A stretch of 34,887 bases of DNA, from assembly GCA_049303835.1 (NCBI GenBank), contig JBAQNN010000003.1:77933-112819 (forward strand), in the 5' to 3' direction. The notes below the pieces were generated by a model, which had not been told where the DNA came from, did no database searches, and worked only from the letters and a program-made list of their open reading frames with translations. Source of the stretch: Minisyncoccia bacterium (lineage in GTDB: Bacteria; Patescibacteriota; Minisyncoccia; Phycocordibacterales; UBA9973). Below are positions 7,542 to 29,844 of this stretch, one piece after another. Numbering within the stretch: the stretch's first letter is position 1; each line of letters begins with the position of its first letter. Both the position numbers and the translations under genes were made by a program.

Positions 7542-7562
7542 TCTATATAAAAACGAAGTCGC
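7542..7562. repeat. Left arm of a 21-nt inverted repeat (partner at 8336-8356)
   Basis: tctatataaaaacgaagtcgc here, against the reverse complement of 8336-8356, tctgtataaaaacgaagtcgc. 20 of 21 positions are identical. Confidence 0.9.
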
Positions 7563-7583
7563 CCCAGAGAGTCTGGCGACTTC
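7550..7583 (-). terminator. Rho-independent terminator of the GC-rich small ORF
   Basis: 9-bp stem GAAGTCGCC (7555-7563) / GGCGACTTC (7575-7583). On the minus strand it is followed by GTTTTTATATA. Confidence 0.7.
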
Positions 7584-7604
7584 TACTGGGGACGAGATGG
7601 GGGC

Positions 7605-7784
7605 TCACAAGAGCCGACAGAGGGTGTGGAGTACTTCAGCGTACTCTCGGACGCACTTCTTGTGATGTTTGATCGGTTCTCCTTTCTTGTAGGGGTGACG
7701 GGTATAGGGCAGATGACTCTTCAGAGAGCTCCACGTGAGCTTGATCGCCCTCTTGATGAGCCGAGCCTTCTTTTTCTTTCTCAT
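7605..7784 (-). CDS. 59-aa highly basic hypothetical protein in a GC-rich, codon-atypical cassette
   Basis: Start placed at the internal ATG (7784), preceded by AAGGGGGAGG, which is where the composition switches. G/C at third codon positions is 41 of 59 by my hand tally. Product is MRKKKKARLIKRAIKL...; no family recognised. Confidence 0.5.
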   Translation of the reverse strand: MRKKKKARLIKRAIKLTWSSLKSHLPYTRHPYKKGEPIKHHKKCVREYAEVLHTLCRLL

Positions 7785-7928
7785 GCCTCCCCCTTTTATT
7801 TGTACATAGTGATTCTTTTTAGGAATACTATATCGGAAGTCTAATGTCAACAAAATATAAAGAAATTATCTGCATAATCTAGTTTTTTTAAAGAATTTGT
7901 GCTATAAATTATAATGTTTTTGACAAAT

Positions 7929-26398: not shown

Positions 26399-28321
26399 AT
26401 GAAAATAATATCCGTCATACCATTTAAAAAAGGCATTCCCAAAGGCGATTTAAGTTATTTTACTAGCTTAGAAGTATCGGCTGGAGATATCGTCATAGTC
26501 TCCATTAAAAGTAAAAAAACTTTGGCACTGGTCACGTCCGTGGAAGAATTGAGAGACAAAAAAAGCAACGTAAAAGAGATGGATTTTAATCTAAAAAAGG
26601 TACTTGAAAACAAAGGAAGTTCTGTCTTTTTGAAAGAGTATCTGGAAACTATTTTTACCACTGCTAAATATTTTGCTCAAAACAAAAATCACACCGCCGC
26701 CTCGCTTATTCCATTTATTTTTGTAGAAAAATATGATCATCTCGCCAAGATGATAACAAACCAAAAAGAAAATATTTCCGACAACCACGCCACCATCAAA
26801 TCAGAAAAATTATTATTCCAAGCACCATTTGGGGATCGTATTTCTATTTATAAAACTTTAGTCCGAGAATCTTTTGCTAGAAATAAATCAGTTTTTATTA
26901 TTCTTCCGACCCAAAGTGATATTGATAAGTTTAAGGACCATTTGTCTAAAGGCATTGAACACTTTACTTTTTCTTTACATGGTGGAATGAATCCAAAAAA
27001 GAATCTCGCAGCCTGTGAAAAGATATTATCTTCCAAACATCCGGTTTTAATCATTGGCACCCCGCCATTTCTGTCCATGCCGATGAGAGACATCGGCACC
27101 ATTATTCTAGAACATGAGAGTTCCAACGCTTATAAAATGATTGGCAAATATCATTTGGATCTGAGAGTTTTTGTTGAACTTTATGCTTCCAAAATAAATG
27201 CCAGATTTATTCTGGCCGACGAAATACTCCGATATGAAACAATAGGCAGAAAAGATATTGATAACTTGATTCCCTTGCACCCACTATCTTTTAGAGTTGA
27301 TTTTTTGGGTGAAATAAAAGTTCTGGGAAAAGATGAGAAATTTAAGGTTCTGCATGACGAAAGCACAGAAGAACTAGAATCCACAATTTTAAGCAAGAAA
27401 AAAGTTTTTATATTTTCTTTAAGAAAGGGGCTGGCCACTATGACCGTATGCCGAGACTGTGGCAATATGATAAGTTGCCAAGAATGCGGAGCACCCCTAG
27501 TGCTCTACACTTCACATCAGGGCAAAAATAGAATATTCGTCTGCAATAGGTGTCAAAAAGATATGGATGGTGATACTGTGTGCTCCAAATGTAGAAGTTG
27601 GAATCTAATACCGCTCGGCATAGGCGTAGATACTGTATATGAAGAAGTAAAAAGATTATTTCCACATGAAAAAATTTTCAAATTGGACAAAGAATCCGCC
27701 AAGACTGCTAAGGGCGCAGAAAAGATAATAAAAGAATTTGAAGAAAGTTCCAGCGCCGTACTCGTCGGCACAGAAATGGCGTTTTCATATTTGAAAGAAA
27801 AAATTCCTGTATCAATAGTAGCTTCTTTTGATTCTCTTTGGAGTATCCCAAACTTCAAAATGAGTGAGAAAATAATTCAAATTCTATTTTCCATTATCAA
27901 CAATACTAAAAAGAAGGTCATCATCCAGACTAAAAATCCCAACGACAGAACTCTGACAGCCATCAAATCAGGCAATCTACTATCTTTTGCACGAGAAGAA
28001 TTGGAAGACAGAAAAAATCTCGGCTACCCGCCGTATAAACGTTTTATAAAAATTACACACTTAGGTGATAAAGATCAAACGATAAAAGCGCGAAGGCTAC
28101 TTGAAGAGACATTCAAAGAATATTCTCCGGAGATTTTCAGCGGATTTATAGCAAAAATGCAAGGTAAATACATGACAAATGCGCTTATAAAAATAGATCC
28201 AAAGAAATGGTCTCTGCCTGAGATCTCCACCAATTCTTCCATAGATGAAAATCTGCTTACTAAACTATATTCACTCCAACCAACCTTTGAAGTTTTTGTA
28301 GATCCTGAAGACCTCCTTTAA
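26399..28321 (+). CDS. priA: PriA-like primosomal protein N' with degenerate helicase motifs
   Basis: The Cys-rich region CRDCGNMISCQECGAPLVLY...FVCNRCQ...CSKCRSWNLIPLGIGVDTVYEEV, then IQT.NP and LGYPPY, are PriA hallmarks. The Walker A and DExH positions are not conserved (see findings). Confidence 0.8.
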   Translation: MKIISVIPFKKGIPKGDLSYFTSLEVSAGDIVIVSIKSKKTLALVTSVEELRDKKSNVKEMDFNLKKVLENKGSSVFLKEYLETIFTTAKYFAQNKNHTAASLIPFIFVEKYDHLAKMITNQKENISDNHATIKSEKLLFQAPFGDRISIYKTLVRESFARNKSVFIILPTQSDIDKFKDHLSKGIEHFTFSLHGGMNPKKNLAACEKILSSKHPVLIIGTPPFLSMPMRDIGTIILEHESSNAYKMIGKYHLDLRVFVELYASKINARFILADEILRYETIGRKDIDNLIPLHPLSFRVDFLGEIKVLGKDEKFKVLHDESTEELESTILSKKKVFIFSLRKGLATMTVCRDCGNMISCQECGAPLVLYTSHQGKNRIFVCNRCQKDMDGDTVCSKCRSWNLIPLGIGVDTVYEEVKRLFPHEKIFKLDKESAKTAKGAEKIIKEFEESSSAVLVGTEMAFSYLKEKIPVSIVASFDSLWSIPNFKMSEKIIQILFSIINNTKKKVIIQTKNPNDRTLTAIKSGNLLSFAREELEDRKNLGYPPYKRFIKITHLGDKDQTIKARRLLEETFKEYSPEIFSGFIAKMQGKYMTNALIKIDPKKWSLPEISTNSSIDENLLTKLYSLQPTFEVFVDPEDLL

Positions 28322-28324
28322 TTA

Positions 28325-28353
28325 TTGACATTTCTATTCAAAAGGTGTATAAT
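28325..28353 (+). promoter_or_regulatory. Perfect-consensus sigma-70 promoter driving the GC-rich cassette
   Basis: TTGACA (28325-28330), exactly 17 nt, TATAAT (28348-28353), with TG immediately upstream of the -10 element. Confidence 0.65.
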
Positions 28354-28409
28354 ACTAGAGTATTGATCTTTCCATTATCTTGAGCAGATAGCTCAGAAAG
28401 AGGCAGAAA

Positions 28410-28640
28410 ATGACCACTTCTAAGGCCACCGAGGCTTCCCGTAAGTTCAACGAGATCCTGCAGAAAGAGACCTTCCTGCCGGCGAACCCCTTCTCGGGAC
28501 TGACCGAGAAACAGATCGAGGAAGTGACTTCGATGGTATCCCTCACGCCCGGTCAGACCCTTGTCGTGTTCTTCCGGGATCACGACGGAAGCATCGTCCG
28601 CGAGCTCGTGGACAAACTCACCGAGGAGAAGGAGAAGTGA
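28410..28640 (+). CDS. 76-aa acidic hypothetical protein in a GC-rich, codon-atypical cassette
   Basis: ATG preceded by AAAGAGG at 6-nt spacing. G/C at third codon positions is 60 of 75 by hand tally, against roughly 1 in 5 for the neighbouring ORF 28812-29189. The promoter upstream and terminator downstream are on the same strand. Confidence 0.6.
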   Translation: MTTSKATEASRKFNEILQKETFLPANPFSGLTEKQIEEVTSMVSLTPGQTLVVFFRDHDGSIVRELVDKLTEEKEK

Positions 28641-28714
28641 GCAAGCGCAAGCTGAAAGCTCTGGCTGCTCTCGCCGCTGTGGCAGCGGCCAAGAAGAAGT
28701 GGCCTCCCAAGTAG
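28637..28714 (+). CDS. 25-codon micro-ORF (V/M)SKRKLKALAALAAVAAAKKKWPPK, start overlapping the upstream stop (GTGA)
   Basis: GTG at 28637 overlaps TGA at 28638-28640. GAGGAG/AAGGAG motifs lie just upstream. It has the same GC-rich third-position bias and ends 8 nt before the terminator hairpin. Confidence 0.4.
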   Translation: MSKRKLKALAALAAVAAAKKKWPPK

Positions 28715-28721
28715 TAATATC

Positions 28722-28775
28722 AGCCCACCCGGGCGCAGAAGGCTCGCCCTTCTCGTCGGGTGGGCTTTCTTATTT
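28722..28775 (+). terminator. Strong compound rho-independent terminator of the GC-rich cassette
   Basis: Outer stem AGCCCACCCG (28722-28731) / CGGGTGGGCT (28757-28766), inner stem AGAAGG/CCTTCT, followed by TTCTTATTT. Confidence 0.75.
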
Positions 28776-28777
28776 AA

Positions 28778-28805
28778 TTGACATTATTAATTAATCTAAT
28801 AAACT
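28778..28805 (+). promoter_or_regulatory. Promoter of ORF 28812; its spacing implies a leaderless mRNA
   Basis: TTGACA (28778-28783), 16 nt, TAAACT (28800-28805), then 6 nt to the ATG at 28812. Confidence 0.45.
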
Positions 28806-28811
28806 TAAAGT

Positions 28812-29189
28812 ATGAACGAAGGAAAAAATGAACCAACACCAAAATTAATAGTATTGACGCCGGATGAAGTACGCAAAATACAAGAAGAAAGAAAACCTCT
28901 GACTAGAGAGCAAGTGGCTGAAATAGAAACAAAAATAAAAGAAGTCCAAGAAAAGGCAAATAGTGAGATAAAAAAAATTATGGAACCGGCTGTTCAGGCT
29001 GATCCCGTTATTGCAGAAGCTGTCATTAAAGATACTGTCTTAGAAAAAGATCACGTTTTATATATTATAGAAATAGAAACAGGAAATGGAAAAGAAATAA
29101 TAGAAAGAAGGTGGTACTTTGGACCGACAGTAAAAGAAGAATATAAAGGTAAGTTTGTGACTACAAAACTTAACTTACAATCACAGTAA
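28812..29189 (+). CDS. Lys/Glu-rich hypothetical protein
   Basis: 125-aa ORF with host-like AT-rich codon usage. No family recognised. Its 3' end overlaps the convergent rsmI by 20 nt. Confidence 0.55.
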   Translation: MNEGKNEPTPKLIVLTPDEVRKIQEERKPLTREQVAEIETKIKEVQEKANSEIKKIMEPAVQADPVIAEAVIKDTVLEKDHVLYIIEIETGNGKEIIERRWYFGPTVKEEYKGKFVTTKLNLQSQ

Positions 29190-29844
29190 ACTCCCCTCTT
29201 TGTTTATCTTTGTTTTTATTAAAATATTCTAAAATTTCAGCCGGAGAGCCGGTTTGAAATTCTTCGTAGATCTTTGTGAGCTCGCGGGCGACGCAGACTT
29301 TTTTGTTCGGACAAAATTTTACCAAAGATTCCAAGGTTTTCAAAATTCTATGGGGAGATTCATAAAAGACCATTGTTCTTTTTGCTTGCGCAATTTCTTT
29401 AAACAAAGTCTCTCTGCCTTTTTTGTGCGGGAGAAAACCTAGAAAAGTAAATTCATGGGTGGGTAAACCAGAAGCTGAAAGCGCCGTTATCACAGCCGAA
29501 GCTCCCGGAATCGGAACCACCTCTACACTATCGCGAAAATTAGTTTTTATTTGGGAAACGAGCATCGCTCCTGGGTCTGAGATTCCAGGTGTACCAGCAT
29601 CTGATACTAAAGCCAAATCTTTACCCTCATTTAATAAATCAAAAATTTTATCTGTCTTTGAGAGCTTGCTCTGAGCATGATAGCTCATTGTGGGTTTATT
29701 TATGCCATATTTATCCAAAATTTTTTTAGTCTCGCGAGTATCTTCGCACAATATCAAATCAACACTTTTGAGTGTCTCAATAGCTCTAAGGGTTATATCC
29801 CCCATATTTCCTATTGGCGTCGCAATGACATAAAATTTTGACAT
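29170..29844 (-). CDS. rsmI: 16S rRNA (cytidine1402-2'-O)-methyltransferase
   Basis: FYVIATPIGNMGDITLRAIETLKSVDLILCEDTR and SDAGTPGISDPG motifs of RsmI. Start set at the internal Met (MSKFYV). Confidence 0.92.
   Translation of the reverse strand: MSKFYVIATPIGNMGDITLRAIETLKSVDLILCEDTRETKKILDKYGINKPTMSYHAQSKLSKTDKIFDLLNEGKDLALVSDAGTPGISDPGAMLVSQIKTNFRDSVEVVPIPGASAVITALSASGLPTHEFTFLGFLPHKKGRETLFKEIAQAKRTMVFYESPHRILKTLESLVKFCPNKKVCVARELTKIYEEFQTGSPAEILEYFNKNKDKQRGEFTVIVS

What the first reader, a model, noticed from the sequence alone, without database searches (positions are those of the whole stretch)
28322..28790. GC-rich, codon-atypical cassette 2: consensus promoter, 76-aa ORF, coupled micro-ORF, compound terminator
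Seen in sequence: the strongest anomaly in the window is a self-contained expression unit wedged between priA and an AT-rich hypothetical gene. In order, it contains:
- An exact TTGACA-17 nt-TATAAT promoter (28325-28353).
- A roughly 50-nt leader with a TGAGC/GCTCA hairpin (28381-28395) and AAAGAGG 6 nt before the ATG.
- A 76-codon ORF (28410-28640).
- A 25-codon ORF starting in a GTGA overlap.
- A 10-bp plus 6-bp nested GC hairpin followed by a T-tract (28722-28775).

From about 28396 to 28768 the DNA is sharply GC-rich. In the 76-aa ORF, 60 of 75 third codon positions are G/C by my hand count, against about 27 of 125 in the adjacent ORF 28812-29189. That three-base periodicity argues for coding sequence rather than structured RNA, and for foreign origin or very unusual selection.

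The product is MTTSKATEASRKFNEILQKETFLPANPFSGLTEKQIEEVTSMVSLTPGQTLVVFFRDHDGSIVRELVDKLTEEKEK. It is acidic and matches no family I know.

Inference: pairing an acidic small protein with a tiny cationic Ala/Leu peptide under a maximal-strength promoter suggests a two-component module, such as a toxin/antidote-like, membrane-active peptide/immunity, or host-interaction pair. Cassette 1 (7542-7860) shares the style.
Basis: partly seen in the sequence, partly recalled or inferred. Interest (0 to 1): 0.7.

Follow-up and report, generated by a model that had tools for sequence, protein, structure and literature searches.

The report
GC-rich small-protein gene in swap slot
The GC-rich island is a real gene for a small protein of unknown function, one of a family that related ultra-small bacteria swap in and out of one chromosomal slot; its reversed codon usage is shared by the whole family, and the proposed partner micro-peptide is not conserved.

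Summary
ORF76 has GC3 of 0.80, against 0.35 expected from its own amino acids under the window's codon usage (z 8.6). Seven independent assemblies span both junctions, so this is not a chimera. No Rfam or tmRNA match was found.

It is a protein-coding gene. I recovered homologues of 66-115 aa in eight further lineages of one Paceibacteria (CPR) clade. All lie just downstream of priA, and where the contig reaches far enough rsmI follows. They share the same consensus promoter. Most share the hairpin leader, and all have a strong SD. Most share one invariant terminator. The 66-aa subfamily has dN/dS of 0.04-0.18.

All alleles are GC3-rich (0.60-0.79) in AT-rich contigs. ORF76's amino-acid make-up is native-like, and ribosomal and ATP-synthase genes lack the bias.

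Allele types do not follow the PriA tree. The window allele is 98.7% identical to that of a lineage with 85% overall identity. This indicates horizontal allele exchange in a variable slot.

ORF25 exists only in the window/L001 lineages, so the two-component idea is unsupported.

Protein function is unknown, with no family or fold match. The cause of the GC bias is unresolved. I favour selection on the transcript; an ameliorating import remains possible.

The parts
26399..28321 (+). priA (left conserved flank of the variable slot)
   Evidence: 640-aa ORF. phmmer E 1e-26 to solved PriA structures 6dcr, 4nl4 and 8fak. Orthologues lie upstream of every family member whose contig reaches that far; the L017 contig begins inside the cassette leader.
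28325..28353 (+). P1: consensus sigma-70-type promoter, TTGACA-17-TATAAT
   Evidence: 12/12 match. It is the only <=1-mismatch match in the window; 33 of 100 shuffles give at least one. It is conserved at the same relative position in L015, L016 and L018-L022. L001 has TACAAT.
28360..28409 (+). Predicted 5' leader of about 50 nt, with hairpin 28380-28396 and SD AAAGAGG 28397-28403
   Evidence: Read from the sequence. The alignment of 8 lineages keeps AGAAAGAGG in 7 and GGAGG in L022. The hairpin's middle pair is A-U in the window and L021, G-C in four lineages and G-U in L019. Paired cells are 90.5%, and 27 of 500 shuffles reach the covariation score, so support is weak. The hairpin is deleted in L022. 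The transcription start is inferred, not measured.
28410..28640 (+). ORF76: 76-aa protein, GC3-rich; the window's allele of the priA-adjacent small-protein family
   Evidence: ORF. GC3 0.80, z 8.6. Homologues: P0001, the L015 ORF and P0008-P0012. BLASTP to the L015 allele gives 8e-8, to P0008 2e-4 and to P0011 3e-4. The 66-aa subfamily has dN/dS of 0.04-0.18.
28637..28714 (+). ORF25 / lineage-specific GC-rich 3' segment (25-codon GTG ORF; also folds as a hairpin)
   Evidence: ORF. The segment is present only in the window and L001 lineages. One substitution separates them, synonymous in the ORF25 frame, so there is no power to test coding. It folds into a 3'-UTR stem-loop. The exact peptide is not in the 15-billion-protein collection.
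28722..28775 (+). Compound intrinsic terminator: outer stem of about 10 bp, inner 6-bp stem, T tract
   Evidence: dG -32.5 kcal/mol, z -5.3. The 3' arm and T tract, CCCTTCTCGTCGGGTGGGCTTTCTTATT, are invariant in 7 lineages. L021 and L022 carry a different double hairpin.
28778..28805 (+). P2: promoter of the next gene (TTGACA-16-TAAACT), set for a leaderless start
   Evidence: 10/12 match. The -35 element ATTGACATTATT is conserved in 8 lineages. There are exactly 6 nt from the -10 element to the ATG in the window, L015, L016 and L017, and no SD. The leaderless start is an inference.
28812..29189 (+). ORF125: second lineage-specific gene of the insert, normal AT-rich composition
   Evidence: ORF, GC3 0.21. 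Homologues P0005-P0007 and the L019 gene lie at the same position. No curated family matches. It overlaps the 3' end of rsmI by 20 nt in convergent orientation.
29170..29844 (-). rsmI-like methyltransferase (right conserved flank of the slot)
   Evidence: Pfam TP_methylase, E 2e-29. In L007 its stop lies 3 nt from the priA stop with nothing in between.

Best explanation
Cassette 2 is a genuine monocistronic gene for a small soluble protein (76 aa here). It is one allele of an unnamed family (66-115 aa) confined to one clade of Paceibacteria (Patescibacteria/CPR).

The family always lies just downstream of priA, and rsmI follows wherever the contig reaches far enough. Its expression signals are better conserved than the ORF itself:
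- a perfect sigma-70 promoter;
- a leader of about 50 nt with a small hairpin abutting a strong SD;
- a very stable terminator;
- directly afterwards, a second promoter driving a probably leaderless companion gene (the ORF125 family).

The slot is variable. Some relatives have nothing there and others have unrelated small units. Alleles move between lineages, most likely by DNA uptake and homologous recombination through the conserved flanks. In this it behaves like a 'minimal mobile element'.

The GC-rich codon choice is a property of the whole family and lies mainly at synonymous positions. I infer that selection on the transcript maintains it: a U/A-poor, well-folded, long-lived, strongly expressed mRNA. 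I rate a recent import as less likely.

ORF25 is a lineage-specific 3' addition, not a conserved partner. The protein's biochemical role is unknown. The turnover of allele classes among close relatives suggests a binding or titrating protein involved in some form of conflict or compatibility; this last step is inference only.
For: SHOWN - coding:
- 3-base GC periodicity of 0.545/0.364/0.792.
- Homologues with different nucleotides but a conserved protein core.
- dN/dS of 0.04-0.18, with synonymous sites near saturation, in five 66-aa alleles.
- No Rfam or tmRNA hit.
- No net covariation across the CDS.

SHOWN - family and context:
- Ten loci from independent samples all lie downstream of priA; the L017 contig starts inside the cassette, so priA is not seen there.
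- Promoter, SD and P2 are conserved in nearly all lineages; the hairpin is lost in L022, and L021/L022 carry a different terminator.

SHOWN - variable slot:
- L007 has priA and rsmI 3 nt apart.
- L013, L012 and L008 hold unrelated inserts.

SHOWN - horizontal exchange:
- By PriA C-terminus, the window, L001, L018 and L019 form one tight group (0.81-0.85 identity) yet carry 76-aa or 66-aa alleles.
- The distant L021 and L022 (0.58-0.61) carry the 66-aa type.
- Between the window and L001, third-position divergence is 2/77 in ORF76 against 0.31-0.41 in mreB, priA, rsmI and atpC (P <= 2e-10).
- Natural transformation by the com system is demonstrated in Saccharibacteria, and com genes are conserved across CPR (PMC10633639).

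SHOWN - GC bias is family-wide and synonymous:
- GC3 is 0.60-0.79 in all alleles, against contig GC of 0.34-0.45.
- ATC 0.89, AAC 0.84, TTC 0.75 and CTC 0.56, against 0.23, 0.30, 0.22 and 0.12 in the background.
- L27, L9, RRF and the ATP synthase genes show no such bias.
- ORF76 has GARP 0.16 and K/(K+R) 0.70, against 0.22 and 0.69 for the window proteome.
- Arg and Gly use AGA, CGA and GGA, which are not typical of high-GC genomes (the comparison rests on my own knowledge).

INFERRED: high expression, mRNA stability as the selected trait, recombination as the transfer route, and the protein's role.
Against: No expression data exist, and promoter strength is inferred from consensus alone.

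Polarised singleton changes at synonymous third positions in the 66-aa subfamily run 11 S>W against 2 W>S. L017 and L018 have lower GC3 (0.59-0.62). A simple resampling model starting from GC3 of 0.92 or more reproduces both the pairwise mismatch and a GC3 of about 0.75 (my calculation). Decay from a very GC-rich ancestor is therefore not excluded for that subfamily.

Other family members have an intermediate amino-acid make-up (GARP 0.24-0.32, K/(K+R) 0.43-0.67).

A clearly foreign-looking GC3 0.92 gene sits nearby in L019, so GC-rich DNA does enter these genomes.

The structure models are of low confidence (pLDDT 66 and 55) and give no fold match, so the functional part rests on nothing direct.
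Confidence: 0.6

Rival explanations
1. Foreign origin with incomplete amelioration. The ORF family was imported once or repeatedly from a very GC-rich donor (a host organism or an unsampled mobile element), captured behind a native promoter, spread among Paceibacteria, and is now decaying towards AT.
For: GC3 is far above the genome's. There is an S>W excess of 11:2 on terminal branches, and GC3 varies between 0.59 and 0.79 among alleles. The resampling model from GC3 >= 0.92 fits the 66-aa subfamily (my calculation). L019 carries another island with a GC3 0.92 gene. The slot is demonstrably a site of gene gain and loss.
Against: No homologue was found outside the priA slot of AT-rich Paceibacteria contigs in 5.8 billion or 1.84 billion proteins, in viral contigs, or in phage and plasmid records.

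Allele classes are only 25-40% identical and differ by indels, yet within-class dN/dS is about 0.1. That implies divergence far older than synonymous saturation, by which time GC3 should have equilibrated.

ORF76's amino-acid composition is native-like, whereas non-synonymous positions should ameliorate more slowly than third positions. Codon preferences (CTC, CCC, GGA, AGA/CGA) are unlike typical high-GC genomes (the comparison rests on my own knowledge).
Confidence: 0.25
2. Two-component module. ORF76 and the cationic Ala/Leu micro-peptide ORF25 form a toxin/antidote-like or peptide/immunity pair made from one transcript by translational coupling.
For: There is a GTGA stop/start overlap and GAGGAG lies 8 nt upstream of the GTG. 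ORF25's GC3 of 0.72 exceeds the expectation from its own amino acids (z 3.5). The only substitution between lineages is synonymous in its frame.
Against: The 75-nt segment is absent from every other family member (L015-L022). There are no PADLOC, Pfam, NCBIfam or PHROG hits for either product. The hydrophobic run is only 11 residues long, too short for a membrane span. The segment equally folds as a 3'-UTR hairpin. One substitution gives no statistical power.
Confidence: 0.07
3. Structured or dual-function RNA. The GC-rich transcript acts mainly as an RNA (a regulator, a sponge, or a 3'-end-derived sRNA), and the ORF is secondary.
For: The GC island with strong promoter and terminator is the classic look of an ncRNA gene in an AT-rich genome. 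The fold z-score is -3.2 on the + strand. The 3' arm of the terminator is invariant in 7 lineages although the ORFs differ. Two local hairpins in the 66-aa CDS are conserved, with one compensatory change.
Against: No Rfam match appears even at E <= 10. The codon periodicity and dN/dS << 1 show that the protein is what is conserved. The RNAalifold covariation term is +1.72, meaning no support. The body differs in length and sequence between alleles.
Confidence: 0.08
4. GC-biased gene conversion at a recombination hotspot. Frequent heteroduplex formation across the variable ORF between conserved arms, with GC-biased repair, drives GC3 up without selection on the product or transcript.
For: There is direct evidence of recombination at exactly this segment. 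The GC excess is concentrated at synonymous sites.
Against: From my own knowledge, the effect sizes reported for bacteria are a few percent of GC3, not +45 points. ORF125 lies in the same high-identity tract yet has GC3 of 0.21, below expectation.
Confidence: 0.05

Closest known systems
Minimal mobile elements (MMEs) of Neisseria (Saunders & Snyder 2002; Snyder et al. 2007; definition as quoted in PMC3082526)
   Same: Two conserved genes (priA, rsmI) bracket a site where different whole-gene cassettes, or nothing, are found in different lineages. There are no integrase or transposase genes or terminal repeats. Exchange is best explained by homologous recombination. The phylum is known to include naturally transformable members (PMC10633639).
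   Different: Here the cassette's own promoter, SD, terminator and next promoter are the most conserved parts and could themselves act as recombination arms. The exchanged ORFs are homologous alleles with a shared, atypical codon usage. Transformation has not been shown for Paceibacteria.
Atypical-composition islets from horizontal transfer, with amelioration (Lawrence & Ochman model; cited from my own knowledge)
   Same: A short segment whose GC3 departs strongly from the genome, at a site of gene gain and loss.
   Different: The bias is shared by deeply diverged alleles. It is largely confined to synonymous positions in ORF76, it sits behind native AT-rich signals, and no donor is detectable.
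Dual-function sRNA / small-protein transcripts (SgrS-SgrT, RNAIII-hld, SR1-SR1P; cited from my own knowledge)
   Same: A short, highly structured, strongly transcribed monocistronic RNA that encodes a small protein.
   Different: There is no evidence of a base-pairing function, and the conserved entity is the protein (dN/dS << 1).
Type I/II toxin-antitoxin and peptide/immunity pairs
   Same: Two short overlapping ORFs of opposite charge under one promoter, in the window lineage only.
   Different: The second ORF is not conserved. There is no antisense RNA, no matching family and no autoregulatory operator evidence.
Integron gene cassettes
   Same: Compact, variable, single-ORF units at a fixed chromosomal position.
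   Different: There is no attC or attI site and no integrase nearby, and each unit carries its own promoter and terminator.

Membership tests
Known structured RNA (Rfam families, tmRNA) | Match to a covariance model or to a tmRNA/tRNA detector | tested here: not met
   cmscan at the gathering threshold found only 3 tRNAs elsewhere in the window. An E <= 10 scan of 28250-28850 gave only noise well below the gathering scores. ARAGORN found no tmRNA.
Protein-coding gene | Reading frame conserved in homologues, with purifying selection | tested here: met
   dN/dS is 0.04-0.18 in five 66-aa alleles. BLASTP between allele classes gives 8e-8 to 3e-4. GC shows codon-position periodicity.
Type II toxin-antitoxin / peptide-immunity pair | Two co-transcribed partner genes conserved together | tested here: not met
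   The ORF25 segment is absent in L015-L022.
Type II toxin-antitoxin / defence system | Similarity to known toxin, antitoxin or defence protein families | tested here: not met
   PADLOC, Pfam, NCBIfam and PHROGs gave no significant hit for ORF76, its homologues or ORF25.
Type I toxin-antitoxin | Small hydrophobic membrane peptide plus a conserved antisense RNA | tested here: not met
   ORF25's hydrophobic run is 11 residues long (sequence). No conserved antisense promoter or ORF appears in the family alignment. Antisense transcription itself cannot be tested here.
Minimal mobile element | Different whole-gene cassettes, or none, between the same two conserved genes in different lineages | tested here: met
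   L007 has none; L013, L012 and L008 hold unrelated units; ten loci hold this family.
Minimal mobile element | No dedicated mobility genes or repeats; incorporation by homologous recombination | tested here: inconclusive
   No integrase or transposase ORF occurs in the insert. The allele tree is incongruent with PriA, and a 98.7%-identity tract lies in an 85% background. The recombination mechanism itself is inferred.
Recent horizontally transferred islet | Homologues in a donor of matching composition | tested here: not met
   No family member was found outside AT-rich Paceibacteria contigs.
Recent horizontally transferred islet | Atypical composition at all codon positions and in amino-acid usage | tested here: inconclusive
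   ORF76 is native-like (GC2 0.36, GARP 0.16, K/(K+R) 0.70). Other alleles are intermediate.
Integron cassette | attC recombination site and an integrase nearby | tested here: not met
   The neighbours are priA, rsmI and atp genes. No integrase ORF lies within 28-30 kb of the window. The only inverted repeats are the leader hairpin and the terminator.

The most novel reading that the evidence does not exclude
These AT-rich, ultra-small bacteria keep a horizontally exchanged pool of accessory genes written in a separate GC-rich codon 'dialect' that selection maintains. Candidate members are cassette 2, cassette 1 and the L019 island. The dialect might armour the transcripts against A/U-directed RNases or make them exceptionally long-lived. 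More radically, it might suit their expression in a GC-richer partner cell. The conserved promoter and terminator arms would act as the recombination handles for swapping alleles.
Probability: 0.15. Interest if true: 0.75.

Novelty: new variant of a known kind. Interest (0 to 1): 0.5.

Why it matters
Composition outliers like this are routinely written off as recent horizontal transfer or as non-coding RNA. Here the comparative data point elsewhere. A native-looking small protein has kept strongly reversed synonymous codon usage across deeply diverged alleles, and those alleles are exchanged within one slot of a reduced CPR genome.

If selection on the transcript is the cause, this would be an unusually clean natural case of gene-specific synonymous-site selection in a genome that otherwise shows none. 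It would also give a handle on how mRNA stability and expression are tuned in organisms that cannot yet be cultured.

There are practical products as well:
- a conserved, probably very strong promoter/leader/terminator set that could serve as an expression cassette;
- a naturally permissive insertion site between priA and rsmI that could be used for genetics in Paceibacteria.

The protein family is new and its function is open.

Tried and rejected
- Known RNA: Rfam at the gathering threshold and at E <= 10, and ARAGORN, found nothing.
- Whole-transcript folding gave only modest z-scores: -3.2 on the + strand and -5.4 on the - strand, much of it from the terminator.
- RNAalifold on five CDSs gave a covariation term of +1.72, meaning no support.
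- Protein homology for ORF76 alone returned one 99% cluster. Full HMMER against 1.84 billion representatives added three tandem-repeat proteins (P0002-P0004). Their E-values are inflated by 4-9 repeated weak stretches, so I judged them spurious.
- Pfam, PHROGs, NCBIfam, PADLOC and PDB sequence search gave nothing significant. The best was an ACT/CBS protein at E 0.4.
- AlphaFold2 with the 7-sequence alignments gave pLDDT 65.7 and 55.4. Foldseek against PDB and BFVD had best E-values of 1.0 and 0.27, which are meaningless.
- Phage or plasmid origin: blastn and tblastn against the phage and plasmid collections, and three viral-contig scans, were all empty.
- Generic translational selection is rejected, because L27, L9, RRF, MreB and the ATP synthase genes have NNY C-fractions of 0.31-0.44, against 0.93 in ORF76.
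- I tried to show that GC3 is at equilibrium by comparing codon mismatch at identical residues with random draws. I then realised that the test cannot separate equilibrium from parallel decay from a uniform ancestor, so I do not rely on it.
- Programmed frameshift or hop joining ORF76 to ORF25: there is no slippery heptamer. An AAG...AAG hop over UGAGC is conceivable but has no support.
- Cassette 1: the exact-sequence look-ups failed, so it has no comparative data.
Full report

Yes. The sequence and ORF list show every element at the stated coordinates:
- TTGACA-17-TATAAT at 28325-28353. It scores 12/12 and is the only match with <=1 mismatch in the whole window.
- The TGAGC/GCTCA hairpin at 28381-28395.
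- AAAGAGG six bases before the ATG.
- ORF76 at 28410-28640.
- ORF25 at 28637-28714, in a GTGA overlap.
- A nested GC hairpin plus T tract at 28722-28775 (dG -32.5 kcal/mol, z -5.3).

GC rises to 0.52-0.61 in a window that averages 0.39. GC by codon position in ORF76 is 0.545/0.364/0.792, while every other gene in the window has GC3 of 0.21-0.46. Given its own amino-acid sequence and the window's codon usage, ORF76 should have GC3 of 0.35 +/- 0.05. It has 0.80 (z 8.6).

The unit is not a chimera. Contigs from seven independent samples (L001-L006, plus one without DNA) carry it with both junctions in the same context.

**2. RNA or protein?**

The first impression fits a structured RNA: a GC island with a strong promoter and terminator in an AT-rich genome. 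No RNA search supports that reading.
- Rfam at the gathering threshold found only three tRNAs elsewhere.
- An E <= 10 scan of the region gave noise.
- ARAGORN found no tmRNA.

Protein searches with ORF76 alone made it look like an orphan. They returned one 99% cluster. A full HMMER pass over 1.84 billion representatives added only three tandem-repeat proteins whose scores come from summed repeats.

The neighbour ORF125 had two more distant homologues. Their contigs, L015 and L016, carry recognisably homologous but much diverged cassettes at the same place. A metagenome scan with the invariant terminator 20-mer and a profile search added L017-L022.

The family now has four allele classes:
- 76 aa: the window and L001.
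- 68 aa: L015, where no gene was called.
- 115 aa: L016, P0008.
- 66-67 aa: L017-L022, P0009-P0012.

Classes share a core, roughly N-P/A-F-x-G-L-x-E-E-x-I/L followed by a hydrophobic strand and a helix. Three of them also share an N-terminal EASRKF helix. BLASTP between classes gives 8e-8 to 3e-4. Within the 66-aa class, dN/dS is 0.04-0.18 with synonymous sites near saturation. This is a protein-coding gene under purifying selection.

**3. Anatomy of the unit**

Across lineages the expression signals are better conserved than the ORF.
- P1 is CTATTGACATTAC.CTCCAAAGGGTGTATAAT.
- The leader has a small hairpin directly 5' of AGAAAGAGGT.
- The terminator is AGCCCACCCGGGCG...CCCTTCTCGTCGGGTGGGCTTTCTTATT. 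Its 3' arm is invariant in seven lineages.
- The -35 element of a second promoter (ATTGACATTATT) follows immediately.

The hairpin's middle pair is A-U in the window and L021, G-C in four lineages and G-U in L019. That is one covarying pair, and 27 of 500 shuffles do as well, so support is weak. L022 lacks the hairpin. L021 and L022 have a different double-hairpin 3' UTR.

P2 sits so that the -10 element ends exactly six bases before the ATG of the ORF125-family gene, with no SD. This spacing holds in the window, L015, L016 and L017, and predicts a leaderless mRNA. That is an inference.

**4. ORF25**

The 75-nt segment that holds ORF25 exists only in the window and L001 lineages. In all other members the stop codon is followed within about 5-20 nt by the terminator or by other hairpins.

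The two lineages that have it differ by one base, synonymous in the ORF25 frame, which gives no power. Its GC3 is above expectation (z 3.5). It is also an Ala-codon-like GCN run, and it folds as a 3'-UTR stem-loop.

Comparative evidence therefore does not support a conserved two-component module. I put the chance that ORF25 is a functional peptide partner at roughly 0.07-0.2.

**5. Genomic context and mobility**

The organism is a Patescibacterium of the Paceibacteria/'Nomurabacteria' type (record titles). The flanks are PriA (E 1e-26 to solved PriA structures) and an RsmI-like methylase.

The slot between them is variable in relatives:
- L007: the two stop codons are 3 nt apart.
- L013: a different 56-aa unit.
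- L012: an AT-rich, opposite-strand 40-aa unit with its own 12/12 promoter.
- L008: two membrane ORFs.

Allele type does not follow the PriA tree. The window, L001, L018 and L019 form one tight PriA group (0.81-0.85 identity over the C-terminal 135 aa) but carry 76-aa or 66-aa alleles. The distant pair L021/L022 (0.58-0.61) carries the 66-aa type. L007 and L013, which lie between, have none.

The window and L001 lineages are 84.9% identical over 5.8 kb, with third-position divergence of 0.31-0.41 in mreB, priA, rsmI and atpC. ORF76 differs at only 2 of 77 third positions and ORF125 at 15 of 126 (P <= 2e-10 and <= 4e-7).

The 66-aa class shows that synonymous sites in this gene are free to change. 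Near-identity between the window and L001 therefore means recent transfer, not nucleotide-level constraint.

The pattern matches the definition of a minimal mobile element: different cassettes between two conserved genes, incorporated by homologous recombination (PMC3082526). Natural transformation through the com system has been shown in Saccharibacteria, and com genes are conserved across CPR (PMC10633639). It has not been shown for Paceibacteria.

**6. Why GC-rich?**

All alleles are GC3-rich (0.60-0.79) in contigs of 0.34-0.45 GC. The bias is towards C- and G-ending codons:

| Codon | Family | Background |
|---|---|---|
| ATC | 0.89 | 0.23 |
| AAC | 0.84 | 0.30 |
| TTC | 0.75 | 0.22 |
| CTC | 0.56 | 0.12 |
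| GAG | 0.65 | 0.23 |
| AAG | 0.67 | 0.22 |

Third-position U falls to 0.12.

Generic translational selection is excluded. L27, L9, RRF, MreB and the ATP synthase genes show none of the bias.

Two explanations remain.

(a) Selection on the transcript. The points in favour:
- The bias is shared by allele classes so diverged (25-40% identity, with indels) that, at the within-class dN/dS of about 0.1, synonymous sites must have turned over many times.
- ORF76's amino-acid make-up is native-like (GARP 0.16, K/(K+R) 0.70, against 0.22 and 0.69 for the window proteome). An imported gene should keep foreign first and second positions longer than third positions.
- The preferred codons include AGA, CGA, GGA, CTC and CCC, unlike typical high-GC genomes. 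This comparison rests on my own knowledge.
- No member occurs in any GC-rich, phage or plasmid context.

(b) Import from a very GC-rich source, with amelioration in progress. The points in favour:
- Polarised singletons run 11 S>W against 2 W>S.
- L017 and L018 have lower GC3.
- A simple resampling model from GC3 >= 0.92 reproduces the 66-aa data.
- Other alleles have an intermediate amino-acid make-up.
- L019 carries a separate island with a GC3 0.92 exonuclease-like gene.

I weigh (a) over (b) at about 2:1. GC-biased gene conversion at this recombining segment is a third, weaker option. ORF125 lies in the same tract and is AT-rich, which counts against it.

One test I tried cannot separate (a) from (b), and I do not use it.

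**7. Function**

Function is unknown. No curated family matches and no PDB sequence is related. The AlphaFold models are of low confidence (pLDDT 66 and 55) and give no fold match.

The products are small, soluble, mostly but not always acidic (pI 4.4-8.2), and predicted alpha/beta.

My committed reading has four parts:
- It is a strongly and constitutively expressed small cytoplasmic protein.
- It is made from a stabilised monocistronic mRNA, with a 5' hairpin, a U/A-poor body and a very stable 3' hairpin.
- It belongs to an exchangeable accessory pool.
- The turnover of allele classes among close relatives points to a binding or titrating role in some conflict or compatibility interaction.

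The genetic architecture and evolutionary pattern are shown. Expression level, the mRNA-stability rationale and the protein's role are inferred.

**8. Novelty and verdict**

The unit is coding, self-contained and under unusual composition pressure. It is not a two-component pair, and it is not clearly foreign.

It is a new protein family, and a new variant of a known kind of locus: an MME-like variable slot. It has two unusual features. Its conserved expression signals flank exchangeable alleles, and its reversed codon usage is family-wide. Interest is moderate (0.5). It would be high if the codon 'dialect' proves to be selected and general in these genomes; cassette 1 at 7605-7784 shows the same bias (z 5.5).

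Noticed in passing
window 28778-28812 (also L015, L016, L017 at the equivalent place): The ORF125-family gene appears to be leaderless. A conserved -35 TTGACA is followed by a 16-nt spacer and a -10 element, then exactly 6 nt to the ATG, with no Shine-Dalgarno sequence. The spacing is kept in four lineages.
   Followed up: partly
window 7545-7860, minus strand (ORF 7605-7784): 'Cassette 1' is a 59-aa very basic ORF (pI 10.6, net +15). Its GC3 is 0.695 against 0.364 expected (z 5.5), with its own SD and hairpin terminator, next to tRNA-Gln. No curated family matches, and the exact sequence is absent from the protein collection. Its promoter is not a consensus match in the scan.
   Followed up: partly
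L019 2182-3833, minus strand: A second GC-rich island lies between rsmI and atpC in a related contig. It holds a 178-aa DEDDh-like exonuclease (motifs FDAETNGL ... HNPLYDS; GC3 0.92) and a 292-aa Cys-rich ORF (GC 0.57), separated by AT-rich spacers. The only phage relative is in Fusobacterium phage phiFN37 (36% identity).
   Followed up: partly
L012 5921-6220 (minus strand); L013 5974-6266; L008 5940-6762: The same priA-rsmI slot holds unrelated inserts in other Paceibacteria. L012 has an AT-rich 40-aa unit with its own perfect TTGACA-17-TATAAT promoter and terminator. L013 has a 56-aa ORF with SD and terminator. L008 has two membrane-protein ORFs. L007 has nothing.
   Followed up: yes
window 28410-29490 versus L001 3515-4600: A tract of raised identity (0.89-0.99) lies inside a 0.71-0.92 background (mostly 0.75-0.89) between two lineages of about 85% overall identity. 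It covers ORF76, ORF125 and the 3' part of rsmI, in steps of 98.7%, 95% and about 89%. This suggests one or more nested recombination events.
   Followed up: partly
66-aa alleles, CDS columns 133-150 and 160-182 of alignment A8 (L017-L022): Two local hairpins inside the coding sequence are conserved across alleles whose other synonymous sites are near saturation: GAGGAGG..CCTCCTC and ACCGCGA..TCGCGGT. L018 shows one compensatory C-G to U-A change at synonymous positions.
   Followed up: no
window 28812-29189 / 29170-29844: ORF125 and the rsmI-like gene converge and overlap by 20 nt at their 3' ends. The same overlap is seen in L001, L015 and L016.
   Followed up: no
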